A DNA stretch of 64,000 nt from an uncultured Chloroflexia bacterium (GTDB lineage Bacteria > Chloroflexota > Limnocylindria > Limnocylindrales > CSP1-4): positions 43,937 through 107,936 of the forward strand of contig CAWHCW010000007.1 in the NCBI GenBank assembly GCA_963827965.1. The letters run 5' to 3'. The notes under the pieces are model-generated. The model worked only from the letters and a program-made list of their open reading frames with translations. It was not told the origin of the DNA and made no database searches. The translations under genes and the position numbers were made by a program. Positions 7,827 to 24,199 of this stretch are shown piece after piece. The stretch's first letter is position 1. Every line of letters begins with the position of its first letter.

Positions 7827-8987
7827 GTGAGCACGCCGGCCGAGGACGCGATCCGGGCCGAGATTGCCCGCCGGGGGCCGATCCCGTTCGCGGATTTCAT
7901 GGCCCTGGCCCTGGGGCACGCCGAGGGGGGCTACTACACGGCGGCGGCGGCCCGGCCGACCCGCGGCGGCGACTTCCTGACGGCGCCCGAGCTGCACCCG
8001 GTCTTCGGGGCCGCGCTCGCCCGCCAGGTCGCCGAGGCCTGGGAGCGCCTCGGCCGGCCCGCCCCGTTCACGCTGATCGAGTACGGCGCGGGGGCCGGAA
8101 CGCTGGCGCTGGCGATCCTCGCCGGTCTCCGCGACGACGGCTCGCCGCTCGCCGGAGCCCTCGTCCACGCCCCGGTCGAGCTCAATCGCCACCGGCTGGG
8201 CGAGCTTCGCACGCGTGCCGCCGCGGCTGGCCTGCCCGTCGTCGACCCGGCCGGGCTCGACACGGCCCCGACCGCCGGCGCCGTCCTCGCCAACGAGTTC
8301 CTCGACGCGCTCCCGGTCCACCTCCTCGAGGTCCGCGACGGCCGAGCGCTGGAGGTCCGCGTGACCCTCGAGGCCGATGGATCGTTCGGCGAGACGCTGG
8401 AGGAGCCCGCGGACCCCGCGCTGCGCGATCGGCTGGAGAGCCTGGCCGGGGAGGGGATCGCCCTCGTCGAGGGCCAGCGGCTCGAAGTCCGGCCGGCCGT
8501 GGCGGCGTGGGCGCGGGAGGTGAGCCGGAGGCTCGCGGCGGGCCTCGTGCTCGTGCTCGACTACGGCGCACCGGCCGCCGACCTGTACGGGCCGCGCCGG
8601 CGGGCCGGCACGCTGATGACCTACCGGGGGCACGCGGCCGAGGGTGATCCCGGCGCCCCGTACCGCGACGTCGGGGAGCGGGACATCACGGCCCACGTCG
8701 ACACCACCGCCCTCGCCGCCGCCCTCGTGGACGCCGGCCTCGCCCTCCTGGGGGAGACCTCCCAGGCCGAGCTGCTCGTCGGCTGCGGACTCGAGGAGCT
8801 GGTCCAGCGGCGCCAGGCGGCGGCCGCGCGGGCGTCCGAGGCGCTGGAGCTGCGGAGCGCGGTCATCCGCCTGCTCGACCCGCGCCACCTCGGTGGCTTC
8901 CGGGCGGTGCTGGCCGGGCGCGGGATCGCCGCCGAGCCGCCCCTGCGCGGGCTGTCGTACCGCGGGCCGGGGGCGCGCCCGCGGTAG
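7827..8987 (+). CDS. DUF185/MidA-family SAM-dependent methyltransferase (NDUFAF7 homolog)
   Basis: Intact 386 aa ORF: [18 protein letters not shown]...[19 protein letters not shown]...[12 protein letters not shown], characteristic of COG1565/MidA. It sits directly upstream of nuoA on the same strand. Confidence 0.8.
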
Positions 8988-9244
8988 CCCGACGCAGGTT
9001 CGGGAGAGGAGCCGCTGCCGCTGCGGCGCCGTGCCGCCTGGCGTGCCGCCGCCGCTCCGTGTCGCCTGGCGTGCCGCCCCGCCACCCCCCCGCCGCGGCG
9101 GCACACAGCCCGCCAGCATCCCCTGCTACGATGCCGCTGCACGTCCGGGCCTCCGGCTGCGTGTGCGCGCGTCTCACCCGAGCTTCCCGCCGGGCCGGCG
9201 GACCGATCACCAAATTCGTGGTCCACCGGCCGCAGAGAGGTGCG

Positions 9245-9601
9245 ATGGAAGGCATCTGGTACGTCGTCGGCTTCGCCTTCGTGGGCGTCGCCTTCGTCTT
9301 CGTCGTGATCGGCGCCTCGTGGCTCATCAGCCACCGCACGAAGGGCAGTCCCCTCAAGGGCCTCCCGTACGAGAGCGGCATCCCGACGTACGGCGACACC
9401 CACGGGCGGTTCGGCGTCTCGTACTACATCTACGCGCTGCTCTTCGTCGCCTTCGACATCGAGGTGATCTTCATCTTCCTGTGGGCGCTGGTCGTGCGCG
9501 ACCCGATCCCCGGGCTGATCTCCTCCATGGGGATCTTCGTCCTCGTCCTCCTCCTGGGCCTGGCCTACGCCTGGCGCAAGGGCGTGTTGACGTGGCGCTG
9601 A
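9245..9601 (+). CDS. nuoA: NADH-quinone oxidoreductase subunit A
   Basis: [29 protein letters not shown]...[11 protein letters not shown]...[22 protein letters not shown]. Confidence 0.9.
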
Positions 9602-10326
9602 CCCGCCCGCCCGCCGGCGGCCCGCCCGCCGGCGCGCCCGGCAGCCGCCTGCCCGTCCCGGCCACGAAGGCCGAGGACGAGGTCGCCGAGGCGATCGTGG
9701 TCCCGAACGTGCTCTGGACGCCCGTCGATGACGAGGCCTACGGGGGCGTTCCCCTCGCCGAGACGCCGACCCTCGTTCTCAAGAAGTACGACGAGTCCGG
9801 CGAGGGACGCCGCAACGACGCCCGCTGGGGCGGCCTGGACGTGATCCCCACCAAGGCGGACTACGTCCTGGACCTGATCCGCCTCAACAGCCTCTGGCCG
9901 CTCCTCTCGGGGCTGGCCTGCTGCGCGTTCGAGATGATGTCCGGCGCCACGAGCAAGAACGACATGGACCGCTGGGGCATGTTCCCCTTCCGGGCCTCGC
10001 CGCGCCAGGCGGACGTCCTCATCGTGGCCGGCACGCTCACGACGAAGATGGCCGAGCCGCTCATCCGCCTCTGGGAGGAGATGCCCGAGCCGAAGTGGGT
10101 CGTCGCGATGGGCGACTGCACCTGCTCCGGGGGCCGCTACAAGCGGAGCTACAGCACGATCCAGGGGATCGACCGGGTCATGCCCGTCGACGTCTACGTC
10201 CCGGGCTGCCCGCCCCGCCCGGAGGGCCTCATCTACGCGATGATGAAGCTCCAGCACCTGGTGCGGGACCGCCGCGGCCACTGGCCGGAGCGCAACATCG
10301 GACCCACCGTCCCGGAGGGGATCTGA
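9592..10326 (+). CDS. nuoB: NADH-quinone oxidoreductase subunit B
   Basis: [12 protein letters not shown]...[13 protein letters not shown]...[12 protein letters not shown]...[10 protein letters not shown], the N2 cluster motifs. The GTG start overlaps the nuoA stop. Confidence 0.9.
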
Positions 10327-10328
10327 CC

Positions 10329-10880
10329 GTGGACCGCGCCTTCAAGGCACTCCTGGAGCGGAAGCTGGGCTCCGCGGTGGAGGGTCCGGTCCGCCAGCGC
10401 CACGACCAGACCGAGATCCGGATCCGGCCCGGCGACCTGCCGCAGGTGATGCGGACGCTGCACGACGAGCCGGACCTGCGCTTCGAGTACCTGGCCGACC
10501 TGTGCGGCGTGGACACGGGGACCACGTTCCAGGTGGTCTACCACCTCTGGAGCGACGTGACCCCCGACTGGCTGCGGGTCATCGTCGACGGGATCCCCCG
10601 CGACGAGCCGCGCCTCCCGTCGCTCACCTTCCTCTGGAAGGGCGCCGAGTGGATGGAGCGCGAGGCCTACGACATGTTCGGCCTCGTCTTCGAGGGGAAC
10701 CGCGACCTCCGCCGCATCTACCTGCCCGACGACTTCGTGAGCTTCCCGCTGCGCAAGGATTTCCACCTGGCCGACGACGTCGCGCGCTCGCCGGGCGGCG
10801 GGCTCCGGCCGATGGAGCGCGCCGGTCCTCCGCAGGACGCCGACGAGACCACGCTCCGGCGCACGTCGCCGGGGGCGTAG
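10329..10880 (+). CDS. nuoC: NADH-quinone oxidoreductase subunit C
   Basis: LCGVDTGTTFQVVYHLWS...FLWKGAEWMEREAYDMFGLVFEGNRDLRRIYLPDDF. Confidence 0.85.
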   Translation: MDRAFKALLERKLGSAVEGPVRQRHDQTEIRIRPGDLPQVMRTLHDEPDLRFEYLADLCGVDTGTTFQVVYHLWSDVTPDWLRVIVDGIPRDEPRLPSLTFLWKGAEWMEREAYDMFGLVFEGNRDLRRIYLPDDFVSFPLRKDFHLADDVARSPGGGLRPMERAGPPQDADETTLRRTSPGA

Positions 10881-10890
10881 GCGAGACGAC

Positions 10891-12105
10891 ATGACGACAC
10901 CGACCCGACCCAGCCTCGACGACCCGGCGCTCCAGATCCCGGTCGACCACGCCGGCATCTTCGAGCCGCTCCCCGTCGCCCACACCGAGCGACAGCGGGA
11001 GTTCTACGCCCTCCGCGATGGCGAGATGCTCCTCAACATGGGGCCTCACCACCCTGCGACGCATGGCGTCCTGCGGGTCGTCCTCAAGATCAACGGGGAA
11101 CAGGTCGTGGACCTGGACCCGATCCTGGGCTACCTCCACCGGGGCGTCGAGAAGCTCTGCGAGAACGCCGACTACCACCAGTCGATCGCGTACATGGACC
11201 CCCTCGACTACCTGGCCTCGATCTTCTGCGAGTGGCCGGCGGTCATGGCCTTCGAGAAGCTCCTCGACGTCGAGGTCCCGCGGCGGGCCGAGTACATCCG
11301 GGTCATCGCCGGCGAGCTCAACCGGATCGCCAGCCACACCCTGTTCCTGGGCTTCATGGCCCTGGACCTGGGCGGGATCACCCCCATCCTGTGGAGCTTC
11401 TCCGAGCGCGACGAGATCGTGGAGATGCTGGCCGGCCTGACCGGCGCCCGCATGCTCTTCAACTACTTCCGGATCGGCGGCGTCAACGGCGACCTGAACC
11501 ACGAGTTCATGAGCCGCCTGGGCGACTGGATGGGCCGGGCGAGCGAGCAGCTCGAGGCCGGCACGGGCCTCCTGAACGAGAACGAGATCTTCGTCCGGCG
11601 CGCCCGGGGCATCGGCGTGATCGACCGCGAGACGGCCCTCCGGATGTGCGCCAGCGGGCCGAACCTCCGGGCGTCGGGCGTCCCGTTCGATCTCCGCCGG
11701 GCCCACCCCTACAGCGTCTACCCGGAGCTGGACTTCGAGATCCCGACCCGCCAGGAGGGCGACTCGCTGGCCCGCTACCTGCTCCGGACCGACGAGGTCA
11801 AGCAGAGCCTCCGGATCATCGACCAGTGCCTCCACCAGATCCCCGACGGGCCCGTCATGGCCCGCCTGCCGCGCCTCCTGCGCCCGCGCCCGGGCCGTGC
11901 CTTCGGCGCGGTCGAGGGACCACGCGGCCAGTACTCCACCTACGTCGTCAGCGACGGCACGGACCAGCCGTTCCGGATGCGGATCCACGACCCCAGCTTC
12001 CTGCACCTCCAGCTCCTGGGTCTCCTGATGCCGGGCAACCTGATCGCGGACACGATGGCGATCATGTCGTCCCTGGACCCGGTCATGGGCGGCGCGGACA
12101 AGTGA
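10891..12105 (+). CDS. nuoD: NADH-quinone oxidoreductase subunit D
   Basis: LNMGPHHPATHGVLRVVLKINGEQVVDLDPILGYLHRGVEKLCE...; intact 404 aa ORF. Confidence 0.95.
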   Translation: MTTPTRPSLDDPALQIPVDHAGIFEPLPVAHTERQREFYALRDGEMLLNMGPHHPATHGVLRVVLKINGEQVVDLDPILGYLHRGVEKLCENADYHQSIAYMDPLDYLASIFCEWPAVMAFEKLLDVEVPRRAEYIRVIAGELNRIASHTLFLGFMALDLGGITPILWSFSERDEIVEMLAGLTGARMLFNYFRIGGVNGDLNHEFMSRLGDWMGRASEQLEAGTGLLNENEIFVRRARGIGVIDRETALRMCASGPNLRASGVPFDLRRAHPYSVYPELDFEIPTRQEGDSLARYLLRTDEVKQSLRIIDQCLHQIPDGPVMARLPRLLRPRPGRAFGAVEGPRGQYSTYVVSDGTDQPFRMRIHDPSFLHLQLLGLLMPGNLIADTMAIMSSLDPVMGGADK

Positions 12106-12118
12106 GGGCCGCTCACCG

Positions 12119-13462
12119 ATGACCGCCGTGACGTCCTACTGGAACCGGCTGTCGCTCCCCTCGCGGATCCTGCTGGTCCTGGTGCCCACGTTCCTGGTGC
12201 TGGGCGGCGCCGCGACGGTCGCGATCGTCCTGCTCGTGCCGCCGCTCCTCGACTTCCTGGGGGCGAACCCGGGCCTCGTCCGCTTCGCCGTCGCCATGCT
12301 GCTGGTGATCGTGGCCACGATCCCGACGGCCTTCGTGATCATCCTCCTGGAGCTGAAGGTGATCGCCCGGATGAACCTCCGGGTGGGGCCCGACCGGGTG
12401 GGACCGTTCGGGGTGGCCATGAGCGTGGTCCACGGGCTCAAGGTGCTCGCCAAGGAGGACTACACGCCGCGCGGCGTCGACGTCCTGATCTTCACCCTGG
12501 CCCCGGTCGCGGTCTTCCTGACCACGATCATGAGCTTCCTCGTGATCCCCTTCGGGCCCGGCCTGATCGCCCAGGACTTCAACATCGCCCTGCTCTACTT
12601 CTTCGCGATCGGCGGCCTCAACGTCGTGGGCCTGATGATGGCCGGCTGGGCCAGCTTCAACAAGTACAGCCTCATCGGCGCGCTGCGCGCCGCGGCCCAG
12701 GCGATCAGCTACGAGATCCCGCTCACCCTCTCCGTGGTCGGCGTGATCATCCTGGCCGGGACCATGAGCCTGGGCTCCATCGTGCAGCAGCAGGCCGGCT
12801 CGGCCCTGGACTGGAACGTCTGGAAGCAGCCCCTGGGCCTGCTCATCTTCTTCGTCGCCGGCATCGCGGAGGTGAACCGGACCCCGCTCGACATGACCGA
12901 GGCCGACCAGGAGATCGTGGCCGGCTTCGCCACCGAGTACTCCGGGATGCGCTTCGGCTTCTTCTTCTTCGCCGAGTACGTCAACGTCTTCGTCATGTCG
13001 GCGATGACGGTCGTCCTCTTCTTCGGCGGCTGGAACGCGCCCTTCGACTGGCCGTTCCCCGTCACCCTGGCCCTCGACCCGGGGAGCCTGGGGCTGGGCC
13101 TCCTCTTCGTCGTGGGGCTGGCCCCGGTGCTGGGAACGGTGCTCCTGGCGCTTCCCTTCTGGCTCGGCTCGTCGCGGATCTCGGCACTCCGGGCGCTCCT
13201 GATCGGGTTCCTCCTCTTCAACGTCCTGGCCGTCGGCGCCTTCCTCGGCTGGGCCTTCATCAGCTTCGACTGGGTGGTGGGGCTCTTCTGGATGAGCGCC
13301 AAGAGCTACGTCTTCGTGCTCGTCTTCGTCCAGATGCGGGCGACCTTCCCGCGGGTCCGGGTGGACCAGCTGATGAGCTTCGCCTGGAAGTGGCTCCTGC
13401 CTGCCGCCCTCCTCAACATCTTCGTGACCGCCATCGCGGTCTCCATCCTGGGCAACCGGTGA
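12119..13462 (+). CDS. nuoH: NADH-quinone oxidoreductase subunit H
   Basis: RMNLRVGPDRVGPFG...NRTPLDMTEADQEIVAGFATEYSGMRFGFFFFAEY; intact. It follows nuoD directly, with no nuoEFG in between. Confidence 0.95.
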   Translation: MTAVTSYWNRLSLPSRILLVLVPTFLVLGGAATVAIVLLVPPLLDFLGANPGLVRFAVAMLLVIVATIPTAFVIILLELKVIARMNLRVGPDRVGPFGVAMSVVHGLKVLAKEDYTPRGVDVLIFTLAPVAVFLTTIMSFLVIPFGPGLIAQDFNIALLYFFAIGGLNVVGLMMAGWASFNKYSLIGALRAAAQAISYEIPLTLSVVGVIILAGTMSLGSIVQQQAGSALDWNVWKQPLGLLIFFVAGIAEVNRTPLDMTEADQEIVAGFATEYSGMRFGFFFFAEYVNVFVMSAMTVVLFFGGWNAPFDWPFPVTLALDPGSLGLGLLFVVGLAPVLGTVLLALPFWLGSSRISALRALLIGFLLFNVLAVGAFLGWAFISFDWVVGLFWMSAKSYVFVLVFVQMRATFPRVRVDQLMSFAWKWLLPAALLNIFVTAIAVSILGNR

Positions 13463-13472
13463 GGGGGCCGCG

Positions 13473-14306
13473 ATGAGCAGCATCCCGGGCCTCGGCCTGG
13501 CCAGGGGCATGGCCCTGACCCTGCGCCGCTTCTTCCAGCCCCCGGTCACGATCAAGTACCCCGAGGTGGACGCGGACGTCGCGGTGAAGTACCGCGGCCG
13601 GCTCCAGCTCCTCTACGACGAGCACGGCACGCTCAAGTGCGAGACCTGCTTCCAGTGCGCCCAGGCCTGCCCCATCGAATGCATCGACATGGGCGGCACG
13701 GACACCAAGGGCCGCTTCGCGGTCCACTGGGGCGCCGCCGAGACGTACGGCGAGCGGCGCACGGAGTCGGCCCTCCGCCGCGCCGGGCGCGAGGTCCCCG
13801 ACGCGCTCTTCACGGCCTTCGAGCCGGCCGACCTCGACGCCGTGGACGCCATCCTGGAGGACCACGACCACGACCCGCACCGGATGCTCTCCATCCTGGA
13901 GGCCGTCCAGGCCGAGTTCGGCAACCTTCCGGTCGCCGCGCTCAAGCGGATCAGCCATCGGACGGGCGCCTGGTACGCGATGATCTACGGCACCGCCAGC
14001 TACTACCACCACTTCCGCTTCGAGCGGACGGTGGAGGAGGTCGCCGTCTGCCGCTGCACGGCCTGCCTGATGGCCGGCGGGGGCCGGCTTGCCGATGCGA
14101 TCAGCGCCGGGCTGCGGACCGAGATGGGCCGGCCCACCCCGGACGGCCGGATCCGCTTCGCCTGGCTCTCCACGCACCTGCCCGGCGCCGCCGCCCCGCT
14201 CGTTGCCCTCGACGGCGAGGCCCAGCCGGAGGTGACCGCCGCCAACGCCACCGCCTGGGCCCAGGCGCTCGCCGGGGAGCACCCGGCCAGCCGCACGGTC
14301 CACTGA
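13473..14306 (+). CDS. fusion of an N-terminal NuoI fragment (single 4Fe-4S motif) with a NuoE-like thioredoxin-fold domain
   Basis: Residues 1-85 (FFQPPVTIKYPEV...RGRLQLLYDEHGTLKCETCFQCAQACPIECIDM...KGRFAVHW) align with the first half of NuoI/TYKY. Residues about 125-245 (RMLSILEAVQAEFGNLPVAALKRISHRTGAWYAMIYGTASYYHHFRF...VCRCTACLMAGGG...DGRIRFAWLSTHLPGAAAPLVALDGE) align with NuoE, but the second Cys pair is replaced by W/H. It is a single continuous frame; the other frames are junk. Confidence 0.7.
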   Translation: MSSIPGLGLARGMALTLRRFFQPPVTIKYPEVDADVAVKYRGRLQLLYDEHGTLKCETCFQCAQACPIECIDMGGTDTKGRFAVHWGAAETYGERRTESALRRAGREVPDALFTAFEPADLDAVDAILEDHDHDPHRMLSILEAVQAEFGNLPVAALKRISHRTGAWYAMIYGTASYYHHFRFERTVEEVAVCRCTACLMAGGGRLADAISAGLRTEMGRPTPDGRIRFAWLSTHLPGAAAPLVALDGEAQPEVTAANATAWAQALAGEHPASRTVH

Positions 14307-14310
14307 GCCG

Positions 14311-15642
14311 ATGACGACGATCCTCGCGACACCCGCCGGCCGGCCCCGCCCGATCCTCGGCGACGCCACGGGGCCCGTCCCGGCCGACCTCGGCGCCGCG
14401 GTCGCCGGCGGCGCGTTCGCCGCGCTGCGCTCCGTCGTCGGCGACCTGGGGCCCACCGGCACCGTGGCGACGATCGCCGCCTCCGGGCTGCGCGGCCGGG
14501 GCGGCGCCGGCTACCCGGCCGGCGACAAGTGGCGGGCCGTCGCCGGTGCCGCCGACCCCGTCCGGTACGTGGTCGCCAACGGGTACGAGGCCGACCCGGC
14601 GCAGGCAACGAACCGCGTCCTCATGGAGACGCGGCCCTTCGCCGTCGTGGAGGGCACCGCCATCGCCGCCCTCGCCGTCGGCGCCCGCGAGGCGATCATC
14701 GCGGTCCGGGCCGAGTACGCCGACGCGGTGCGAGCCCTGGAGGCCGCCGCCTTCGCCGCCGAGGAGGCCGGCTTCCTCGGGGCGGACGTCCTGCGCTCCG
14801 GCCGCGACGTCGCCGTCACCGTCCGCACCGTGCAGGGCGCCTACATGCTGGGCGAGGAGACGGTCCTCCTGCAGGCCCTGGAGGGGAAGCGCGGCCAGCC
14901 CGAGCAGCGCCCGCCGTACCCCACCGAGCGCGGCCTCTTCGGCCATCCGACCCTCGTCCACAACGTGGCCACGCTGGCGACCGTGCCCTGGATCGTCCTC
15001 AACGGCGTCGACGCCTTCCGCGCCATCGGCGACCCCGACGCGCCGGGCACCGTGCTCGTCGGGGTCTCCGGCGCCGTGGCCAACCCGGGGATCGCCGAGA
15101 TCCCGACCGGGACGACCCTCCGCGAGATCATCGACCTCGCCGGGGGCCTCGCCGCCGGGCACACGTTCAAGGCGGCCCTGGTCGGGGGCCCCAGCGGCGG
15201 GCTCCTGCCGGCGGAGCTCCTCGACACGCCCTACTCGTTCGACGCGCTGCGGGCGACCGGCGCCCACGTCGGCTCGGGCGGGGTCGTGATCGCCGACGAG
15301 GGCACCTGCATCGTGGACCTGGCCCGGCTCCTCGTCCGCTACGGCGCCGACGAGGCCTGCGGCAAGACGATCCCCTGCCGGATCGGCCTGCGCCGGCTGG
15401 CCGAGATCGGCCAGCGCTACGTCGACGGCACGGCCCGGCCCACCGATCCGAAGCTCCTCGCCGACCTCGCCGACGACTGCGCCGCGAGCGCGCTCTGCGA
15501 TCACGAGCGGCTGGCCCCCTCGCCGCTCCGCACGGCGATGCGATACTTCGGGCCAGAGATCGACGATCACATCCTCCGGGGCGTCTGTCCCGCCGGCGTC
15601 TGCAGCCCGATCCGGGTCGCCGGCGCGAGCACCGGAAGGTAG
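14311..15642 (+). CDS. nuoF: NADH-quinone oxidoreductase subunit F-like (FMN/NADH-binding 51 kDa family)
   Basis: GLRGRGGAGYPAGDKW, GEETVLLQALEGKRGQPEQRPPYP, and the Fe-S region EACGKTIPCRIG...ALCDH. The middle Cys of the usual CxxCxxC is Thr here. Confidence 0.85.
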   Translation: MTTILATPAGRPRPILGDATGPVPADLGAAVAGGAFAALRSVVGDLGPTGTVATIAASGLRGRGGAGYPAGDKWRAVAGAADPVRYVVANGYEADPAQATNRVLMETRPFAVVEGTAIAALAVGAREAIIAVRAEYADAVRALEAAAFAAEEAGFLGADVLRSGRDVAVTVRTVQGAYMLGEETVLLQALEGKRGQPEQRPPYPTERGLFGHPTLVHNVATLATVPWIVLNGVDAFRAIGDPDAPGTVLVGVSGAVANPGIAEIPTGTTLREIIDLAGGLAAGHTFKAALVGGPSGGLLPAELLDTPYSFDALRATGAHVGSGGVVIADEGTCIVDLARLLVRYGADEACGKTIPCRIGLRRLAEIGQRYVDGTARPTDPKLLADLADDCAASALCDHERLAPSPLRTAMRYFGPEIDDHILRGVCPAGVCSPIRVAGASTGR

Positions 15643-15656
15643 GCGACGACCGCACG

Positions 15657-18254
15657 ATGGCCGACCTGATCTCCCGCCCCACCGACCTCGTCTCGACGAC
15701 CCGCCCCGAGCCGGTCGTCGACAGCGTCGCCGAGCGCCTCTTCCGGACCCAGGCGCCGCAGCGGCCGCAGTCGACGCCCGTCATCCGCCTCGAGGTCGAC
15801 GGACGACTCGTCGAGGGCCGCGAGGGCCAGACGATCCTGGAGGTCTGCCGCGACAACGGGATCGAGATCCCGACCCTCTGCTACGAGCCGAAGCTGCCGG
15901 GCTTCGGCGCCTGCCGGATGTGCGTGGTGGAGGTGGAGGGCGAGGAGCACCCGCCGATCTCGTGCTCGCGGGCGGCCGAGACGGGGATGGTGGTCCGGAC
16001 CCAGACCGAGGAGGTCCGGCGGATCCGCCGGACGAACCTCGAGCTCATCTTCTCCGACCACAACGCCTACTGCCTGCCGCCCTGCCAGAACAAGTGCCCC
16101 AGCCACATCGACATCCCGGGCTTCCTGAAGGCGAACGCGGAGGGCGAGTTCCGCGAGTCGGCCCGCATCTTCAAGCGGACGATCCCCTTCCCCTCCATCC
16201 TCGGCCGCGTCTGCCCGGCGCCCTGCGAGGAGCACTGCCGCCGCGACGAGGTCGACGAGGCGATCGCCATCCGCGACAGCCACCGCTACGCCGGCGACCA
16301 GGTCCTCCGCGAGATGCTGGAGCAGGACCTCGACCCGCCCGTCCCCTTCGAGCTGCAGCCGACGTCGGGCAAGCGGGTGGCGGTCATCGGCTCGGGGCCG
16401 GCCGGCGCTTCGGCGGCCTACTACCTCCTGATCGCGGGCCATGACGTCACCATCTTCGAGCGCGACGAGGCCCCCGGCGGGATGCTCCGCTACGGCATCC
16501 CCGAGTACCGCCTGCCGAAGGAGCGCGTCCTCGACCCCGAATACGAGAGCGTCACCCGCCTGGGCGGGCGCTTCGTCTGCGGCCAGGCCCTGGGGCGCGA
16601 CTTCAGCCTGGACGACCTCCAGAACCAGGGCTTCGACGCGGTCGTGGTGGCCATCGGCTGCTACGACACGAACAAGCTGGGGATCCCCAACGAGGACGCC
16701 GACGGCGTCATCGACGGCCTGGCGTACCTCAAGATCGCCACCCTCGGCCTGACCTACCCGGGCCACGCCGGCACGCGGGTCGTCGTGATCGGCGGCGGCT
16801 TCACGGCGATGGACTGCGTCCGCACCTCGGTCCGCCAGGCCGCCGCCGAGGTGACCCTCGTCTACCGCCGCGACATGAAGGACATGCCGGCCTCGAGCGA
16901 GGTCCACGAGGCGATCGAGGAGGGCGTGACCACCATCTTCCAGGCCGGCCCGACCCGCGTCCTCGTCGACGAGGCGAGCGGCAAGGTCTCCGGCGTCGAG
17001 TTCATCCGGATGCAGCTCGGCGCGCCCGACGCGTCCGGCCGCCGGCGCCCCGAGCCGGCGCCCGGGACCGAGTTCGTCATCGAGTGCGACCGGGTCCTGC
17101 TCGCCATCGGCCAGGGGCCGGACCTCGCCTGGATCGGCCCCGGCAACGACGGGCCGCAGGCCACGAAGCAGCGCCGCCTCAAGGTGGACCCCGTCACCTT
17201 CGAGACGGGCCGGCCCGGCATCTTCGGCACGGGCGACGTCCGCACCGGCGCCGCCACCGTGGTCCAGGCGATCGCCGACGGGCGGCGCGCGGCGTACGCC
17301 GTGGACGCCTTCCTGCAGGGCCTGGACCTCGGCGCGATCCGGACCCGCCAGACGCTGGCGGAGCCGCAGCCGGAGTTCCTCTCCATCGTCCCCTTCACCT
17401 CCGAGGTGAAGGAGTCGCGCCATCGCCTCGGCAGCATGCCGGCGGAGGAGCGGCGGACCTCGTACATCGAGTACGAGATCCCCTACAGCCGCGAGGCGGC
17501 GGTGGCGGAGAGCACGCGCTGCCTGCAGTGCACCTGCGAGGCGATCGGCTTCTGCGACCTCCGCCGCCTCGGCATCGAGTACGGGACGACCCTCCGGACC
17601 CTGGAACCGCAGAACAACCGGGGGGCCGGCTTCCGGAGCGTCACCGAGAATCGCTTCACCGGCACGAACCACGACTACCTCCGCGACGACAGCCACGCCT
17701 TCATCCTCCGCGAGCCGTCGCGCTGCATCGACTGCGGCCGCTGCGCCCAGGTCTGCTCGGAGGTGGTGGGCGCCGCCTGCTACGACTTCATGCGGATCGG
17801 CTTCGACACGCTGGTGACGACGCCGCTCGACATGAGCCTCAACGACACGCCCTGCGTCTCCTGCGGCCGCTGCGCCGAGACGTGCCCGACGGGCGCCCTC
17901 ATGCCGAAGCCGCGGATCCTGGAGAAGTACGAGGTCGACGAGAGCCGCTGCATCCTCTGCGGGATCTGCGTGGACGCCTGCCCCTACGACGCCCTCCGCT
18001 GCGGCCCCGACTTCGAGCTCGCCCACACGAGCCGCGAGGAGCCGGAGATCGACCTCATCGCGATCGCCGCCGTGGATCGCGAGACGGAGCTGACCTACGT
18101 GCGCCGCGAGCGCGACTGGGCCCAGCGGGCCCTCGCCTCCGGGCGCGACATCGGGCCGCGGATGCTGCCCGTCCTCCCGGCCTCCATCGCGGGCGGGGGC
18201 GGGAAGGGCAACGGGAGCGAGCACGCGGCGCCGCCCCCCCACGGAACCGACTGA
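15657..18254 (+). CDS. NuoG-like iron-sulfur protein with an inserted GltD-type (glutamate synthase small-subunit-like) FAD/NAD(P)H domain and a NuoI-like 2x[4Fe-4S] C-terminus; no molybdopterin-like domain
   Basis: Residues 40-110 form a NuoG-type 2Fe-2S domain (VIRLEVDGRLVEGREGQTILEVCRDNGIEIPTLCYEPKLPGFGACRMCVVEV). Residues about 135-555 match GltD closely (CLPPCQNKCPSHIDIPGFL, GKRVAVIGSGPAGASAAYYL, VVVIGGGFTAMDCVRTSVRQAAAEVTLVYRRDMKDMPASSEVHEAIEEGV, GVEFIRMQLGAPDASGRRR, GIFGTGDVRTGAATVV). Residues 675-745 resemble the NuoG N4 region (FILREPSRCIDCGRCAQVC...CPTGAL). Residues 730-800 read CVSCGRCAETCPTGALMPKPRILEKYEVDESRCILCGICVDACPYDALRCGPDFELA, which is NuoI-like. Confidence 0.75.
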   Translation: MADLISRPTDLVSTTRPEPVVDSVAERLFRTQAPQRPQSTPVIRLEVDGRLVEGREGQTILEVCRDNGIEIPTLCYEPKLPGFGACRMCVVEVEGEEHPPISCSRAAETGMVVRTQTEEVRRIRRTNLELIFSDHNAYCLPPCQNKCPSHIDIPGFLKANAEGEFRESARIFKRTIPFPSILGRVCPAPCEEHCRRDEVDEAIAIRDSHRYAGDQVLREMLEQDLDPPVPFELQPTSGKRVAVIGSGPAGASAAYYLLIAGHDVTIFERDEAPGGMLRYGIPEYRLPKERVLDPEYESVTRLGGRFVCGQALGRDFSLDDLQNQGFDAVVVAIGCYDTNKLGIPNEDADGVIDGLAYLKIATLGLTYPGHAGTRVVVIGGGFTAMDCVRTSVRQAAAEVTLVYRRDMKDMPASSEVHEAIEEGVTTIFQAGPTRVLVDEASGKVSGVEFIRMQLGAPDASGRRRPEPAPGTEFVIECDRVLLAIGQGPDLAWIGPGNDGPQATKQRRLKVDPVTFETGRPGIFGTGDVRTGAATVVQAIADGRRAAYAVDAFLQGLDLGAIRTRQTLAEPQPEFLSIVPFTSEVKESRHRLGSMPAEERRTSYIEYEIPYSREAAVAESTRCLQCTCEAIGFCDLRRLGIEYGTTLRTLEPQNNRGAGFRSVTENRFTGTNHDYLRDDSHAFILREPSRCIDCGRCAQVCSEVVGAACYDFMRIGFDTLVTTPLDMSLNDTPCVSCGRCAETCPTGALMPKPRILEKYEVDESRCILCGICVDACPYDALRCGPDFELAHTSREEPEIDLIAIAAVDRETELTYVRRERDWAQRALASGRDIGPRMLPVLPASIAGGGGKGNGSEHAAPPPHGTD

Positions 18255-18266
18255 GCGAGGCGAGAG

Positions 18267-18800
18267 GTGGCGATTCCGGACACCGTGCCGGTCCTGGGGA
18301 TGAGCTGGAACGACCTGCTCTTCCTCTTCCTCGCGGGGGCGCTGCTCGGCAGCGCCCTGCTGGTGGTCACCCTCCGCGACATCATCCGCTCCGGCATCGC
18401 GATGATCGCCGCGTTCGCCGCCCTGGCCGGCATCTACGTCATGCTGGGCGCCCCGCTCGTCGCCGCCGCCCAGGTCCTCGTCTACATCGGGGCGATCGCC
18501 GTCCTGATCCTCTTCGCCGTCATGCTGACCCAGGCCAAGAACGCGCCGGTCCGCCTCGTCTTCCAGACCCAGGCGATCCCGGCGGCCGTCGCCGCGATCG
18601 TCCTGGCGGTCATCGTGGCCCTGAGCGTCACGGCCACGGACTGGGGAGACGTCGGCCAGCGGGTGGTCACGGGCACCGACGCCCTCGCCCGGCTCCTCTT
18701 CACCGACTACGTGCTCCCCCTGGAGATCGTCAGCGTGCTCCTGCTGGCGGCCGTCATCGGCGGCGTCTACCTCGCGAAGCGGGAGGACCGTGACGCATGA
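18267..18800 (+). CDS. nuoJ: NADH-quinone oxidoreductase subunit J
   Basis: GTG start; hydrophobic 177 aa protein in the position and with the pattern of NuoJ ([17 protein letters not shown]). Confidence 0.85.
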
Positions 18801-21163: not shown

Positions 21164-22710
21164 ATGAACGTCGGCGACGTTCCCCATCCTGAGCGTCATC
21201 ACCTTCCTGCCGCTCGGCGGGGCGATCGTCGTGGCCCTCATCCCGCGCCGCAACGTCGGCGCGATCCGGGGCGCGGCGCTCGCCTTCTCGCTGGCCACCT
21301 GGGTGGTCAGCCTCTGGCTGCTCCTGGGCTACCTGCCCGGCCGGGACACCGGGACGGCGATGGCCTTCCAGTACGTGGAGCAGCTGGACTGGATCCCCCT
21401 CTTCGGCATCCAGTACAAGCTCGGCGTCGACGGCCTCGGCGTGGCGATGGTGGTCCTCACCACGACGCTGACCTGGATCTCCATCCTGGCCAGCTTCTCG
21501 CCGATCAAGGAGCGGGTGAAGGAGTACATGGTCTCCTTCCTCGTCCTCGAGGTCGGGATGCTCGGCGTCTTCGTCTCGCTGGACCTCTTCCTCTTCTACA
21601 TCTTCTGGGAAGTCGTCCTCGTCCCGATGTACCTGATCATCGGGATCTGGGGCGGGGCGAACCGCATCTACGCCACGATCAAGTTCGTCCTCTACACCCT
21701 GGTCGGATCGCTCCTGATGCTGGTGGCGATCCTGGCCACGGCGTTCACCTACCAGGCGGCGACCGGCAGCTGGGCTGGTGCCTTCGACCTCCAGAACCTG
21801 GCCGGCCACGGCTTCGACCGGACCTTCCAGCTGTTCGCCTTCGCCGCGTTCGCGCTCGCCTTCGCGATCAAGGTCCCCATGTTCCCGTTCCACACGTGGC
21901 TGCCCGACGCCCACGTGGAGGCGCCGACGGCGGGCTCGGTGATCCTCGCCGGGGTTCTCCTGAAGCTCGGCGCCTACGGCTTCATCCGCTTCGCGATCCC
22001 GCTCTTCCCGGAGGGGGCCCAGGCCTTCGCCCCCCTGATCATCGTGCTGTCGGTCATCGCGATCATCTACGGCGCGATCGTGGCCCTGGTGCAGCCGGAC
22101 CTCAAGAAGCTGGTGGCCTACAGCTCCGTCAGCCACATGGGCTTCGTGACGCTCGGGATCTTCGTCTTCCAGCAGCAGGCGCTCCAGGGGGCGATCCTCC
22201 AGATGGTCAACCACGGCCTCATCACCGGCGCCCTCTTCCTCCTGGTGGGCGTGATCTACGAGCGGACGCACGACCGCACGATCGCGAAGATGGGCGGGCT
22301 CGGGGCGCCCATGCCCGTCTACTCGGCGGCGTTCGGCTTCTTCGTCTTCGCCTCGGTCGGCCTGCCCGGCCTGGCCGGGTTCGTCGGCGAGTTCCTCGTC
22401 TTCCAGGGCACCTTCGCGTTCAGCCCGCCGACGGCCGCGACGATCGCCTTCGTCATGATCCTCGCCGCCGCCTATCTCCTCTGGATGCAGCAGCGCGTCC
22501 TGTTCGGGCCTCTCTCCGACTTCCTGAAGGGGACTGGGGCAGCACCTGACGGACATGCGCCCGGTGGAGATCCTGACGCTCGCCCCGCTGGGGGCGCTGA
22601 TCGTGATCCTGGGCCTCTTCCCCGGCCTCGTCCTGGACCTCATCGCCGGATCGGTCAAGGCCGTCCTCGCCGCCGTGGACCCGTCGCTCGCGACGGCGAT
22701 CGGGAACTGA
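21164..22710 (+). CDS. nuoM: NADH-quinone oxidoreductase subunit M (two frameshifts)
   Basis: ATG at 21164 (MNVGDVP), then a shift at about 21180 into the frame holding ILSVITFLPLGGAIVVALIP...FPFHTWLPDAHVEAPTAGS... An extra 10-nt run (actggggcag, about 22524-22533) shifts into the frame encoding HLTDMRPVEILTLAPLGALIVILGLFPGLVLDL...AIGN stop. Confidence 0.85.
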
Positions 22711-22723: not shown

Positions 22724-24199
22724 ATGTCCCTTGCCGACCTCACCGTCATCGCCCCGCTCGTCGTCGTCGTCCTCGTGGCGGGGGCCATCATCGTGGCCGA
22801 CATCATCAAGCCCGGGAACGCCACGCTCGCGGTCGGGGTGGGCCTCCTGGGCCTCGGGATCGCGGCCGCCCTGATCGTGCTCGTCGGGTCGACGCCGGGG
22901 ACCGCGTTCGGCGGCTCGTACCGGGTCGACGCCCTGACGACCTTCCTCCACCTCGTCTTCGTGGCGATCGCGGCCCTGACGATCCTCTTCGGGCCGGACT
23001 ACCTGGCGCCACGCGGGCTGCCGGTTCCCGAGTTCGCCGCGCTCCTCGTCTTCGCGATCGCGGGGATGATGCTCGTCGCGGCCTCGGCCGATCTCCTGGT
23101 CCTCTTCCTGGGCCTGGAGCTGATGGTGATCCCGGGCTACCTCCTGGCCGGCTACCACAAGCGCGACGCGCTCTCCACGGAGGGCGCGGTCAAGTACTTC
23201 CTGCTGGGCTCGTTCTCCAGCGCGATCTTCCTCTTCGGGCTGGCCTTCGTCTGGGGCCTCACCGGCTCCACGCGGATCGGCGACGTGGCGGGCTTCCTGG
23301 GCCGGATCGTCGAGGGGCAGACGGCGCTCTCGGCGGGCCTGGCGATGGGCCTCGCCTTCCTGACGACCGGCGTCGCCTTCAAGATCGCCGCCGTCCCCTT
23401 CCACTACTGGACGCCCGACGCCTACCAGGGCTCGCCGACCCCGATCACGGGCTACCTCTCGGTCGGGCCGAAGATCGGGGCCTTCGCCGTGATCCTGCGG
23501 GTCTTCGCCGAGGCGCTGGGGCCGCTGCGCGACGAGTGGGTGATCGTCTTCTTCGTCCTGGCCGCCCTGACCATGACCCTGGGCAACCTGGTCGCCCTCA
23601 CCCAGGACAACGTCAAGCGGATGCTGGCCTACTCCTCGATCGCCCACACCGGCTACATGCTGGTGGGGCTCGCGGCCTACGCCGCCGGCCAGATCCAGGG
23701 TCTCGAGGGGCTCCTCTTCTACAGCGCCGCCTACTCCTTCATGAACCTCGGCGCCTTCGCCGTCATCGGGGCCCTCCAGAAGCGGCCCGGCGTGACGAGC
23801 CGCCTGGAGACGTTCGCCGGCCTGGGGCGCCGCGAGCCGGTCCTCGGGATCCTGATGGTCCTCTTCCTGCTCTCGCTCACCGGGATCCCGCCGACGGCCG
23901 GCTTCTTCGCCAAGGCCTACGTGATCATCGCCGCGGTCCAGGGCGGCGGCTGGCTGACGCTCCTCGCCGTGATCGCGGTCCTCAACGCCGCGGCCGCCGC
24001 GTTCTACTACCTCCGGGTCGTCGTCTACATGTACATGCGCGAGCCGCAGGGCGAGCCGACCCCGGTGGCCCACGGGGCGCTCCTGCGCCTGGGGCTGGCG
24101 ATCACGGCGATCGTCACGGTGGTGCTGGGGCTCTTCCCGGGGCCCCTCCTCGAGGGCGTCGGGGCGGCCGCGAAGGCGATCGGGGCGGCGCTGCCGTAG
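22724..24199 (+). CDS. nuoN: NADH-quinone oxidoreductase subunit N
   Basis: Intact 491 aa ORF (FHYWTPDAYQGSPTPITGYLSVGPKIGAFAVILR...). Confidence 0.9.
   Translation: MSLADLTVIAPLVVVVLVAGAIIVADIIKPGNATLAVGVGLLGLGIAAALIVLVGSTPGTAFGGSYRVDALTTFLHLVFVAIAALTILFGPDYLAPRGLPVPEFAALLVFAIAGMMLVAASADLLVLFLGLELMVIPGYLLAGYHKRDALSTEGAVKYFLLGSFSSAIFLFGLAFVWGLTGSTRIGDVAGFLGRIVEGQTALSAGLAMGLAFLTTGVAFKIAAVPFHYWTPDAYQGSPTPITGYLSVGPKIGAFAVILRVFAEALGPLRDEWVIVFFVLAALTMTLGNLVALTQDNVKRMLAYSSIAHTGYMLVGLAAYAAGQIQGLEGLLFYSAAYSFMNLGAFAVIGALQKRPGVTSRLETFAGLGRREPVLGILMVLFLLSLTGIPPTAGFFAKAYVIIAAVQGGGWLTLLAVIAVLNAAAAAFYYLRVVVYMYMREPQGEPTPVAHGALLRLGLAITAIVTVVLGLFPGPLLEGVGAAAKAIGAALP

What the first reader, a model, noticed from the sequence alone, without database searches (positions are those of the whole stretch)
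13473..18254. A Stn/Nfn-like NuoE-NuoF-GltD flavoprotein cassette embedded in a complex I operon, in place of canonical nuoEFG
The operon order is nuoA-B-C-D-H-[I fragment::E-like]-F-[G-like::GltD::ferredoxin]-J-K-L-M-N. The G-like protein keeps the NuoG 2Fe-2S and N4-type Fe-S regions. It carries a complete glutamate-synthase-small-subunit-type FAD/NAD(P)H domain (near-identical motifs VVxGGGxTAMDCVRTSVRQ, GRRR, GxGDVRTG) inserted after the N5-position motif. It lacks the molybdopterin-like domain. NuoE-like + NuoF-like + a GltD-containing NuoG/HydA-N-terminal-like subunit is the composition of Sporomusa-type Nfn (StnABC) and related electron-bifurcating transhydrogenases. Here that module is co-operonic with, and fused into, the membrane complex I genes. 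It could give a complex-I-like enzyme with a second flavin and nucleotide site (NADPH or bifurcating input) instead of a standard NADH dehydrogenase module. I am not aware of a described complex I with this architecture.
Basis: partly seen in the sequence, partly recalled or inferred. Interest (0 to 1): 0.9.

Follow-up and report, generated by a model that had tools for sequence, protein, structure and literature searches.

The report
Complex I with Stn-like NADPH module
In this Chloroflexota bacterium the respiratory complex I operon has no ordinary NADH-input genes: a transhydrogenase-type flavoprotein cassette sits inside the gene for the NuoI iron-sulfur subunit and is fused to both of its halves, so the proton pump probably takes electrons from NADPH as well as NADH.

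Summary
Three tightly spaced genes (13473-14306, 14311-15642, 15657-18254) lie between nuoH and nuoJ.

- **Composition.** They encode a NuoE-like protein, a NuoF-like protein and an 865-aa 2Fe-2S/GltD/NuoG-like protein. The closest solved relatives are the NfnABC and StnABC transhydrogenases (E 4e-157 and 1e-138). There is no molybdopterin domain.
- **New point.** nuoI is split. Its N-half is fused to the E-like protein. Its C-half is the "ferredoxin" at the end of the 865-aa protein. The two pieces cover NuoI profile positions 1-64 and 71-113.
- **Distribution.** The arrangement recurs in at least 579 loci of species-representative genomes. The best 80 are all Chloroflexota, those named more closely Limnocylindria. 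It also recurs in Thermoleophilia (Actinomycetota).
- **F subunit.** In Thermoleophilia it is a complete bifurcation-type BfuB. In the window it has lost the ferredoxin-reducing domains, so bifurcation is unlikely here.
- **Best reading.** A proton-pumping NAD(P)H:quinone oxidoreductase with an FAD/NADPH port.
- **Novelty.** "Nuo-Bfu" complexes were predicted in 2022 for other phyla. Those lack both the GltD domain and the split NuoI. This is a new variant of a known kind, and I found no description of it.

The parts
9059..9601 (+). nuoA. This is the mechanical ORF. The true start is probably near 9245, by comparison with the 118-aa gene call in L001.
   Evidence: PF00507, E 4.5e-28; L001 gene calls
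9592..10326 (+). nuoB. The N2 cluster ligands are present: [18 protein letters not shown] and GCPP.
   Evidence: PF01058, E 1.6e-26; motifs read
10329..10880 (+). nuoC. The start is inferred from the 183-aa call in L001.
   Evidence: PF00329, E 5.8e-39
10891..12105 (+). nuoD. The quinone-site motifs GPHHPATHGVLR and GYLHRG are present.
   Evidence: PF00346, E 5.5e-84
12119..13462 (+). nuoH
   Evidence: PF00146, E 2e-103
13473..13715 (+). N-terminal half of NuoI (residues 1-81 of the 277-aa protein). It carries the first CxxCxxCxxxCP motif (C56, C59, C62, C66), which is invariant in the homologues.
   Evidence: TIGR01971 positions 1-64, 49.8 bits; PDB NuoI chains; invariance in A1
13821..14306 (+). 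NuoE/StnA/HydC-like thioredoxin-like domain, fused to the NuoI N-half. C193, C195, C198 and H235 are invariant. The canonical second Cys pair is absent.
   Evidence: PF01257, E 7e-19; 9bov_C 6.6e-14 and 8oh5_A 6.3e-13; 78/78 conservation
14311..15642 (+). NuoF/BfuB-core flavoprotein (FMN and NAD(H) site). It lacks the Bfu N-terminal 2Fe-2S domain and the C-terminal 2x[4Fe-4S] domain. Its N3/B1 motif is C-G-K-T-I-P-C, with the second Cys replaced by Thr.
   Evidence: Pfam; HydB, NfnB and StnB E 1e-107 to 1e-101, against NuoF E 2e-87 or weaker; conservation
15780..16007 (+). G' protein: NuoG/HydA-type 2Fe-2S domain (residues 42-117; C75, C86, C89, C103)
   Evidence: PF13510, E 9e-20; invariant Cys
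16071..17321 (+). G' protein: GltD/NfnB-type domain (residues 139-555). It has two predicted 4Fe-4S sites, an FAD GxGxxG motif, and the NADPH motif GGGFTAMD...YRRDMKDMPA. H209 stands in place of StnC K170.
   Evidence: PF14691 and PF07992; alignment to StnC; Foldseek TMt 0.77-0.79 to NfnI-L and GltD
17502..17912 (+). G' protein: NuoG/HydA-like Fe-S region (residues 616-752). It has four invariant Cys (622, 625, 627, 633) and a two-motif dicluster domain (C690-C700 and C733-C743).
   Evidence: PF22117 and Fer4 hits; colinear with StnC up to residue 700; invariance
17913..18056 (+). C-terminal half of NuoI, fused to the end of G' (residues 753-800). It carries the second CxxCxxCxxxCP motif (C765-C775) and the NuoI-type 'GPDFELAHTSREE' tail.
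   Evidence: TIGR01971 positions 71-113, 48.2 bits; 8qby_I residues 93-141, E 3.5e-12
18057..18254 (+). Variable C-terminal tail of G' (residues 801-865). It is poorly conserved.
   Evidence: 0.48 identity in distant loci
18267..18800 (+). nuoJ
   Evidence: PF00499
18797..19108 (+). nuoK
   Evidence: PF00420
19134..21152 (+). nuoL
   Evidence: PF00361 and PF00662
21231..22710 (+). nuoM. The window sequence has an apparent 1-base frameshift near 22528-22538. The last 60 residues are in another frame and end near 22710.
   Evidence: PF00361; tblastn of L001 NuoM
22724..24199 (+). nuoN
   Evidence: PF00361

Best explanation
This is a functional, class-wide variant of respiratory complex I. It arose when a bfuC-bfuB-bfuA (StnA-B-C / NfnC-B-A type) cassette landed inside nuoI of an 11-gene nuo operon.

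**Shown.**
- The NuoI N-half, with its first 4-Cys motif, is fused to the E-like subunit.
- The StnC-like subunit has lost its formate-dehydrogenase-like domain. It now ends in the NuoI C-half, with the second 4-Cys motif.
- All Fe-S ligands, the FAD/NADPH motifs, the N2 site of NuoB and the quinone site of NuoD are conserved.

**Inferred.**
- The two NuoI halves reassemble into the 2x[4Fe-4S] fold (clusters N6a and N6b). Each cluster would then be ligated by two polypeptides, which staples the flavoprotein module to the Q-module.
- Electron path from NADPH: FAD in the GltD domain, then its two 4Fe-4S clusters, then the NuoG-like clusters.
- In soluble Stn, one branch of these clusters is a dead end (C2 to C1). 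Here that branch leads to N6a, N6b, N2 and quinone, and drives the proton pump.
- The F subunit's FMN site offers a second port, for NADH, that joins the same wire.
- F lacks the ferredoxin-reducing domain, so the window's enzyme is a non-bifurcating NAD(P)H:quinone oxidoreductase. It derives from a fuller Bfu-type ancestor that Thermoleophilia still carry.
For: **Architecture.**

**Complementary NuoI halves.** The halves score 49.8 and 48.2 bits against TIGR01971. A re-joined sequence scores 102.2 bits over profile positions 1-113. The split point is the same in Thermoleophilia, at profile 2-66 and 71-117.

**No other NuoI-type motif.** The 64-kb window holds no further CxxCxxCxxxC motif in any of six frames.

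**Conservation and synteny.**
- At least 579 loci in species-representative genomes.
- 78 of 80 fetched loci are syntenic.
- All cluster Cys are invariant.
- The G' Fe-S region is 0.90 identical and the GltD domain 0.79 identical in distant loci, at least as conserved as NuoD at 0.76.

**Domain details.**
- The NADPH motif and the FAD fold are kept.
- NuoB and NuoD motifs are intact.
- F aligns only to HydB residues 130-540 of 599.
- The Thermoleophilia F matches BfuB end to end, with E down to 4e-237.

**Stn cofactor path and dead-end branch.** PMC10482914.
Against: - There are no biochemical, expression or structural data.
- AF2 gave pLDDT below 35 for residues 626-817, so the geometry of the junction is untested.
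- The re-joined NuoI scores 102 bits, just under the 113-bit family cut-off.
- The FMN arm is unusual, so the NADH port may be altered or weak:
  - N3 motif Cys to Thr.
  - NADEGEPG changed to N(G/A)YE(A/S)DPA.
  - NNVET changed to HNVxT.
  - The E-domain has lost two canonical Cys.
  - E and F evolve faster than the membrane subunits.
- An open wire between an NADPH site and an NAD site would act as a wasteful transhydrogenase unless it is gated.
- I could not check whether these genomes carry a second, intact nuoI or nuoEFG elsewhere.
Confidence: 0.6

Rival explanations
1. NADPH-only complex I. The GltD FAD site is the sole working input. The E and F subunits are structural remnants of the ancestral Bfu core that no longer oxidise NADH.
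For: - E and F are the fastest-evolving soluble parts of the operon, at 0.53 and 0.58 identity, against 0.79-0.90 for G'.
- One N3/B1 ligand Cys is replaced by Thr in 58 of 59 sequences.
- Residues of the FMN pocket are changed.
- The E-domain has lost its canonical second Cys pair.
Against: - The Gly-rich FMN loop (GRGGAGxP..KW), GEET, three N3 Cys and an invariant H398 are conserved.
- C193, C195, C198 and H235 of the E-domain are invariant in 78 of 78 sequences. This looks like re-ligation of clusters rather than decay.
- The genes are intact in all loci examined.
Confidence: 0.2
2. Electron-bifurcating or confurcating complex I (Nuo-Bfu type). Ferredoxin and NAD(P)H are oxidised together, or NAD(P)H reduces quinone and ferredoxin at once.
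For: - All three proteins are most similar to subunits of bifurcating NfnABC, StnABC and HydABC.
- The sister architecture in Thermoleophilia carries a complete BfuB with the ferredoxin domain.
- Nuo-Bfu was proposed by Schut et al. 2022 (PMC9304861).
Against: - In the window and in all 58 Limnocylindria homologues, F ends about 10 residues after the CPAGVC motif. It lacks the B2 domain and the B3/B4 domain where ferredoxin binds (PMC12018979).
- The BfuC-type 2Fe-2S site is remodelled.
- The published criterion is that non-bifurcating homologues lack B2-B5.
Confidence: 0.07
3. Redox-balancing machine run in reverse, or as a transhydrogenase. Proton-motive force drives quinol to NADP+ to make NADPH, or the complex mainly equilibrates NADPH and NADH through the shared Fe-S wire.
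For: - Two nucleotide sites lie on one Fe-S chain, as in Stn, where electrons pass from FAD to FMN (PMC10482914).
- Complex I is reversible (established knowledge).
Against: - Nothing in the sequence argues specifically for reverse operation.
- The relatives are aerobic-type heterotroph MAGs from soil and lakes, judged by the names of the records only.
- The FMN arm is under the weakest constraint.
Confidence: 0.08
4. Assembly chimera, or a soluble Stn-like enzyme merely encoded inside the nuo operon without being part of complex I.
For: - The window does carry at least one sequencing-type indel, in nuoM.
- The cassette's closest solved relatives are soluble enzymes.
Against: - Gene order is identical in 78 of 80 independent loci and in two phyla. 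These include a closed chromosome and megabase long-read contigs.
- Both junctions are in-frame fusions to halves of NuoI, with all eight Cys invariant.
- There is no other nuoI in the window.
Confidence: 0.03

Closest known systems
StnABC / NfnABC (Nfn-Bfu) electron-bifurcating transhydrogenases (PDB 8oh5, 9bov, 9n5u)
   Same: - Same three-subunit composition and gene order.
- G' is colinear with StnC residues 4-700: 2Fe-2S, a GltD insertion with FAD and NADPH, then NuoG-like clusters (E 1e-138 to 4e-157).
- The E-like and F-like proteins also have their best hits here.
   Different: - The formate-dehydrogenase-like domain of StnC (residues 683-1172) is absent and is replaced by the NuoI C-half.
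- StnC K170 is a His here.
- F lacks the B2 domain and the B3/B4 domains.
- The E-domain cluster ligands are changed.
- The proteins are fused to a membrane complex rather than being soluble.
Nuo-Bfu, predicted by Schut et al. 2022 (PMC9304861) in Geobacter, Deferribacteres, Planctomycetes and Nitrospirae
   Same: A Bfu-type C-B-A module sits in the middle of a nuo operon in place of NuoEFG. Quinone is the 'third substrate' and the complex is thought to pump protons.
   Different: - As described, Nuo-Bfu has 14 separate subunits, a BfuB with the ferredoxin domain, and no GltD domain.
- Here NuoI is split and fused, BfuA carries a GltD FAD/NADPH domain and no pterin-type domain, and the window's BfuB is trimmed.
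- The hosts differ: Limnocylindria and Thermoleophilia.
Canonical bacterial complex I (T. thermophilus Nqo1-14; M. smegmatis 8e9g)
   Same: All membrane and Q-module subunits are present, with N2 ligands and quinone-site motifs. The NuoF-like core and the 2Fe-2S domain of NuoG are recognisable.
   Different: - No NuoG molybdopterin-like domain.
- An extra FAD/NADPH domain with two more clusters.
- NuoI is delivered as two halves on two polypeptides.
- The E-F-G' genes lie between H and J rather than between D and H.
Mbx-like operons of Thermotoga, in which a GltD-related flavoprotein takes the place of NuoI (Degli Esposti 2015, PMC4758237)
   Same: A GltD-type NAD(P)(H) flavoprotein is joined to a complex-I-related membrane module at the NuoI position.
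   Different: - There the GltD protein substitutes for NuoI in an Mrp/Mbx-type complex that reduces NAD(P)+.
- Here NuoI is retained in two halves, and the module includes E-like, F-like and G-like parts in a true nuo operon.

Membership tests
Respiratory complex I (Nuo / NDH-1) | Eleven core genes (A, B, C, D, H, I, J, K, L, M, N) in one operon | tested here: met
   Pfam hits for all subunits. NuoI is present as two halves.
Respiratory complex I (Nuo / NDH-1) | N2 cluster ligands in NuoB, and His/Tyr quinone-site motifs in NuoD | tested here: met
   NuoB has CCAFE, DCTC and GCPP. NuoD has GPHHP..HGVLR and GYLHRG.
Respiratory complex I (Nuo / NDH-1) | NuoI as a single 2x[4Fe-4S] polypeptide | tested here: not met
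   The halves lie on two proteins. They cover TIGR01971 positions 1-64 and 71-113. Re-joined, they score 102.2 bits against a cut-off of 113.
Respiratory complex I (Nuo / NDH-1) | Canonical N-module: NuoE with a 4-Cys N1a site, NuoF with a CxxCxxC...C N3 site, and NuoG with a molybdopterin-like domain | tested here: not met
   - No molybdopterin domain.
- The N3 motif is CxxTxxC.
- The E-domain has C193, C195, C198 and H235.
Respiratory complex I (Nuo / NDH-1) | NADH:quinone oxidoreduction coupled to proton translocation | not testable with these tools
   This needs membranes or purified enzyme.
StnABC / Nfn-Bfu transhydrogenase | Large subunit with an N-terminal 2Fe-2S domain, an inserted GltD FAD/NADPH domain, and NuoG-like 4Fe-4S clusters | tested here: met
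   Colinear alignment to 9bov_A residues 3-698 and 8oh5_C residues 4-700. Foldseek top hits agree.
StnABC / Nfn-Bfu transhydrogenase | C-terminal formate-dehydrogenase-like domain of StnC (residues 683-1172), which mediates tetramer formation | tested here: not met
   The protein ends at residue 865. After residue 752 it is NuoI-like.
StnABC / Nfn-Bfu transhydrogenase | Lys (StnC K170) as fourth ligand of the FAD-proximal cluster, reported as strictly conserved in StnC | tested here: not met
   The aligned residue is H209. It is invariant in Limnocylindria and Thermoleophilia.
Bfu family (bifurcating BfuBC core) | BfuB with B2-B5 clusters: an N-terminal 2Fe-2S domain and a C-terminal 2x[4Fe-4S] ferredoxin-binding domain | tested here: not met
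   The window's F aligns only to HydB residues 130-540 of 599. The feature is met in the Thermoleophilia relatives, which match end to end.
Bfu family (bifurcating BfuBC core) | BfuC 2Fe-2S cluster with four Cys ligands | tested here: not met
   The second Cys pair is absent. H235 and C195 are invariant instead. The canonical four Cys are present in Thermoleophilia.
Bfu family (bifurcating BfuBC core) | Ferredoxin-dependent electron bifurcation | not testable with these tools
   Biochemical assay needed.
Nuo-Bfu (predicted, PMC9304861) | Bfu C-B-A genes inside a nuo gene cluster, replacing nuoEFG | tested here: met
   Gene order.
Nuo-Bfu (predicted, PMC9304861) | Fourteen separate subunits including an intact NuoI, with BfuB carrying the ferredoxin-type domain (IPR017896) | tested here: not met
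   Thirteen genes with a split NuoI. F has no Fer4 domain.
GltD / NfnB-type FAD-NAD(P)H domain | Fer4_20 plus Pyr_redox_2 fold, an FAD GxGxxG motif, and the NADPH motif GGGxTAMD...YRR | tested here: met
   - Pfam E 9e-18 and 9e-28.
- Motifs conserved.
- pLDDT mostly above 80.
- TMt 0.77-0.79 to NfnI-L and GltD.

The most novel reading that the evidence does not exclude
This is a previously unrecognised class of respiratory complex I, shared by two abundant soil and freshwater lineages (Limnocylindria and Thermoleophilia). NuoI's two clusters would each be built from two polypeptides. The pump would be fed directly by NADPH through an FAD site. The Thermoleophilia form would be a four-substrate (NADH, NADPH, ferredoxin, quinone), proton-pumping, electron-bifurcating machine. 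The window's form would be its streamlined aerobic derivative, which doubles as a gated NADPH/NADH redox balancer tied to the quinone pool.
Probability: 0.25. Interest if true: 0.92.

Novelty: new variant of a known kind. Interest (0 to 1): 0.78.

Why it matters
- **A new input for complex I.** Complex I is regarded as an NADH-specific enzyme, or ferredoxin- or F420-specific in some relatives, with a fixed Fe-S wire. A version with an FAD/NADPH port would mean NADPH can be respired with energy conservation and without a transhydrogenase.
- **A natural split subunit.** A NuoI assembled from halves of two other subunits would be a natural 'split-subunit' experiment on how input modules dock to the Q-module.
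- **A concrete evolutionary event.** It documents a soluble Bfu/Stn cassette captured by insertion into nuoI. It also gives a graded series, from the full BfuB in Thermoleophilia to the trimmed F in Limnocylindria, for asking how bifurcating modules became plain dehydrogenase modules.
- **Ecological weight.** The hosts are widespread uncultured soil and lake bacteria, so the enzyme may be quantitatively important in those ecosystems.

Tried and rejected
1. **Heterodimer model.** I built a paired, linker-joined IE+G' alignment (A2) to model the two chains together and test whether the NuoI halves pair.
2. **AF2 of G' alone.** With 61 sequences the model was good only for residues 41-560. Residues 626-817 had pLDDT below 35. 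It therefore says nothing about the junction. The tool returns no coordinates, so cluster-to-cluster distances could not be measured.
3. **Second nuoI or nuoEFG in the same genomes.** Only the 64-kb window could be scanned, and it was negative.
4. **Cultured hosts.** Cluster members with names were all MAGs.
5. **Literature.** Nine searches found no description of this architecture in Limnocylindria, CSP1-4, Ellin6529 or Thermoleophilia. They did find the related Nuo-Bfu prediction.
6. **Other 800-850-aa hits from the representative search.** I considered P0272, P0256, P0267 and P0315 as further truncated forms and rejected them. They continue into the formate-dehydrogenase-like domain and break off at a '...DHCARL' motif. 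They are probably cut at a selenocysteine codon or a contig end (my inference). They do not end in a NuoI-type tail.
7. **Promoter and terminator scan.** It showed nothing meaningful at the gene junctions.

Full report
**1. What is in the sequence**

The window has about 74% G+C. On the + strand, Pfam identifies the following genes, all in one direction:
- nuoA, nuoB and nuoC.
- nuoD (10891-12105).
- nuoH (12119-13462).
- Three further genes: 13473-14306, 14311-15642 and 15657-18254.
- nuoJ (18267-18800) and nuoK.
- nuoL, nuoM and nuoN (to 24199).

The three middle genes are separated from their neighbours and from each other by 10, 4, 14 and 12 bases. A consensus scan finds no terminator at any junction.

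NuoB keeps the N2 ligands. NuoD keeps the HHP...HGVLR and GYLHRG quinone-site motifs. The Q-module therefore looks functional.

**2. The three cassette proteins**

*The 277-aa protein.* It is a fusion.
- Residues 8-81 match the N-terminal half of NuoI. M. smegmatis NuoI residues 8-78 give E 1.8e-10, and many other NuoI/TYKY chains match. TIGR01971 positions 1-64 score 49.8 bits. This half contains one CxxCxxCxxxCP motif.
- Residues 117-261 form a NuoE/HydC-type thioredoxin-like domain (PF01257, E 7e-19).
- The best solved matches are the small subunits of NfnABC (9bov_C) and StnABC (8oh5_A).

*The 443-aa protein.* It has the NuoF core domains.
- It is closer to the B subunits of bifurcating enzymes (HydB, NfnB, StnB; E 1e-107 to 1e-101) than to any NuoF (2e-87 or weaker).
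- It aligns only to their core, for example HydB residues 130-540 of 599.
- It lacks their N-terminal 2Fe-2S domain and their C-terminal two-cluster ferredoxin domain.
- It ends about ten residues after a CPAGVC motif. In HydB that motif precedes the ferredoxin domain.

*The 865-aa protein (G').*
- Its Pfam domains are Fer2_4 (42-117), Fer4_20 (139-217), Pyr_redox_2 (240-542), Fer4_Nqo3 (683-748) and Fer4 (758-781). There is no molybdopterin domain.
- It is colinear with C. saccharolyticus NfnA (9bov_A residues 3-698, E 4e-157) and S. ovata StnC (8oh5_C residues 4-700, E 1e-138).
- An AF2 model is confident for the 2Fe-2S and GltD parts.
- Its best structural matches are those same chains. NfnI-L and GltD follow, with TM 0.77-0.79 normalised to the target.

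**3.

The last Cys motif of G' and the 30 residues after it read CILCGICVDACPYDALRCGPDFELAHTSREE. They match the second half of NuoI (P. denitrificans NuoI residues 93-141, E 3.5e-12; TIGR01971 positions 71-113, 48.2 bits).

In StnC the chain continues at this point into a formate-dehydrogenase-type CxxCxxxC motif instead.

The two NuoI pieces are complementary and do not overlap. Joined in silico, they match the NuoI profile over positions 1-113 of 121. The score is 102.2 bits (E 1.4e-29), roughly the sum of the parts and just under the curated cut-off of 113.

A six-frame search of the whole window finds only four CxxCxxCxxxC motifs. One is in the 277-aa protein and three are in G'. No intact nuoI exists in the 64 kb.

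Motifs A and B of G' (C690-C700 and C733-C743) have the 32-residue spacing of the HydA/NuoG dicluster domain, which I know from the published structures. That leaves motif C without a partner inside G'. The natural partner is the motif in the NuoI N-half. In a 2x[4Fe-4S] ferredoxin fold each cluster takes three Cys from one motif and one from the other (established knowledge). Both NuoI clusters would therefore bridge two polypeptides. This step is inferred, not shown.

**4. It is not an artefact, and it is widespread**

- G' has more than 120 clusters at 80-96% identity in public data. Those that are named are Chloroflexota or Candidatus Limnocylindrales.
- The fusion protein behaves likewise.
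The best 80 are all Chloroflexota. Those named more closely are Limnocylindria or Limnocylindrales (taxonomy).
- In 78 of those 80 loci the order A-B-C-D-H-IE-F-G'-J-K-L-M is present as far as the contig reaches. These loci include a closed 3.68-Mb chromosome and contigs of 2-3.5 Mb.
- All cluster-binding Cys are invariant.

**5. A second lineage with the fuller module**

An exhaustive search of 50%-identity representatives showed that the next relatives of G' are StnC/NfnA-like proteins of 1000-1270 aa at 38-47% identity.

One 816-aa cluster (P0260) also ends in a NuoI-type tail. Its contigs, and those of relatives P0440 and P0405, show the same operon. The named relatives are Thermoleophilia, in Actinomycetota.

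In these loci:
- The NuoI split falls at the same profile positions, 2-66 and 71-117.
- The E-domain has the canonical four Cys.
- The F-like subunit is 635-638 aa. It matches bifurcating BfuB subunits from end to end, including the ferredoxin-binding domain (7t2r_B residues 5-594 of 597, E 4e-237; StnB 2-582 of 584; NfnB 11-595 of 602).
- The Thermoleophilia consensus keeps the NADPH motif and the same His in place of StnC K170. The P0260 subclade has a degenerate NADPH motif.

The shared split point and the shared Lys-to-His change suggest a single origin (inference).

**6. What has changed in the window's version**

- The N3/B1 motif of F is C-G-K-T-I-P-C, with the second Cys replaced by Thr, in 58 of 59 sequences. 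H398 in 'LCDHE' is invariant.
- The FMN-pocket motifs differ from canonical: N(G/A)YE(A/S)DPA for NADEGEPG, and HNVxT for NNVET.
- The E-domain has C193, C195, C198 and H235 invariant in 78 of 78 sequences, but lacks the canonical CxxxC pair.
- Conservation differs sharply between parts. The table gives identity to the window across distant Limnocylindria loci.

| Part | Identity |
|---|---|
| E-domain | 0.53 |
| F | 0.58 |
| NuoD | 0.76 |
| NuoI N-half | 0.77 |
| GltD domain | 0.79 |
| NuoI C-half | 0.83 |
| NuoB | 0.84 |
| G' Fe-S region | 0.90 |

NuoF is normally among the best-conserved complex I subunits (my own knowledge). The FMN arm is therefore under relaxed or shifting constraint, while the FAD arm and the wire are under strong constraint.

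**7. How it most likely works**

In Stn, electrons go from FAD through C7, C6, C5, C4, C3 and B1 to FMN. The C2-C1 branch into the formate-dehydrogenase-like domain is described as a non-functional remnant (PMC10482914).

In G' everything up to the C2-equivalent is kept, and the C1 domain is replaced by the NuoI C-half. The most economical reading (inferred) is this:
- The dead-end branch of Stn is the exit here: C2-equivalent to N6a, N6b, N2 and quinone.
- NADPH enters at FAD.
- NADH enters at FMN and joins at the C3-equivalent.
- The membrane arm pumps protons as usual.

Published work treats the B2-B5 clusters, especially the B3/B4 ferredoxin domain, as the mark of bifurcating Bfu enzymes (PMC9304861; PMC12018979). 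The window's F lacks them, so I consider bifurcation unlikely here. It remains plausible for the Thermoleophilia form.

**8. Comparison with what is known**

- Schut et al. 2022 predicted 'Nuo-Bfu'. This is a 14-subunit complex I with BfuABC in place of NuoEFG, in Geobacter, Deferribacteres, Planctomycetes and Nitrospirae. That is the nearest published concept. As described, it has no GltD domain and no split NuoI, and it is in other phyla.
- Degli Esposti 2015 noted a GltD-like flavoprotein replacing NuoI in Mbx-like operons of Thermotoga.
- Searches for Limnocylindria, CSP1-4, Ellin6529 or Thermoleophilia together with complex I found nothing on this architecture.
- I therefore rate it a new variant of a known kind: a hybrid of Nuo-Bfu and Nfn-Bfu with a split, doubly fused NuoI. 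The window carries a trimmed derivative of the non-bifurcating type.

**9. Limits**

- There is no biochemistry and no expression data.
- There is no reliable model of the junction.
- There was no check for a second nuoI or nuoEFG elsewhere in these genomes.
- NADPH rather than NADH specificity of the GltD site rests on motif homology only.

Noticed in passing
window 7827-8987 (+): A 386-aa Methyltransf_28 protein (the NDUFAF7/MidA family of SAM methyltransferases; E 6e-46) lies directly upstream of nuoA. The same gene precedes nuoA in L001. In mitochondria this family methylates the NuoD homologue during complex I assembly (my own knowledge). It may therefore be an assembly factor for this complex.
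   Followed up: partly
window 22528-22538 (nuoM): There is an apparent single-base frameshift. L001 NuoM residues 6-467 and 464-523 align in two different frames. The true end is probably near 22710, and the mechanical ORF runs on to 22874, overlapping nuoN. This is most likely a sequencing indel. The three cassette genes show no such break.
   Followed up: yes
L072 8001-8867 and L075 5784-6584: An orphan second copy of the NuoI-N::E fusion (288 aa in L072, about 59% identical) sits outside any nuo operon. The L072 copy, which I translated, keeps the Cys and His ligands. In L072, the locus whose neighbours I examined, it lies beside a fused 2-oxoglutarate dehydrogenase E1/E2 gene and a DUF255 thioredoxin-domain gene. 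The same two MAGs also carry the operon copy (L040, L055).
   Followed up: partly
L082-L085 (Thermoleophilia contigs), e.g. L084 3565-18336: The same split-NuoI operon is present, but with a full-length BfuB (635-638 aa) that carries the ferredoxin-binding domain, and with a canonical 4-Cys E-domain. These are candidates for a proton-pumping, electron-bifurcating complex I that also has an NADPH site.
   Followed up: partly
P0260 / L082 10001-12451: One Thermoleophilia subclade has a degenerate NADPH-binding motif in the GltD domain: GDGFAAAE instead of GGGFTAMD, and no YRR. The Fe-S ligands and the NuoI tail are kept. The class consensus keeps the NADPH motif.
   Followed up: partly
window 14311-15642 and 13821-14306, compared across L002-L081: Within Limnocylindria the E-domain and F evolve faster (0.53 and 0.58 identity in distant loci) than NuoD (0.76), NuoB (0.84) and G' (0.79-0.90). 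This is the reverse of the usual pattern, in which NuoF is among the most conserved subunits.
   Followed up: yes
window 51603-53108 (-): dnaA, with DnaA_N, Bac_DnaA and Bac_DnaA_C domains, lies about 27 kb from the end of the nuo operon. The window is ordinary chromosome near the presumed origin. It also holds purH, glpX, corA and inositol-1-phosphate synthase genes.
   Followed up: no
window 15657-18254, residue H209: The residue aligned with StnC K170 is an invariant His in both phyla. K170 is the unusual Lys ligand of the FAD-proximal 4Fe-4S cluster, reported as strictly conserved in StnC. F has an invariant H398 next to the fourth N3 Cys, and the E-domain has an invariant H235. This suggests three 3Cys-1His cluster sites in one module.
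   Followed up: partly
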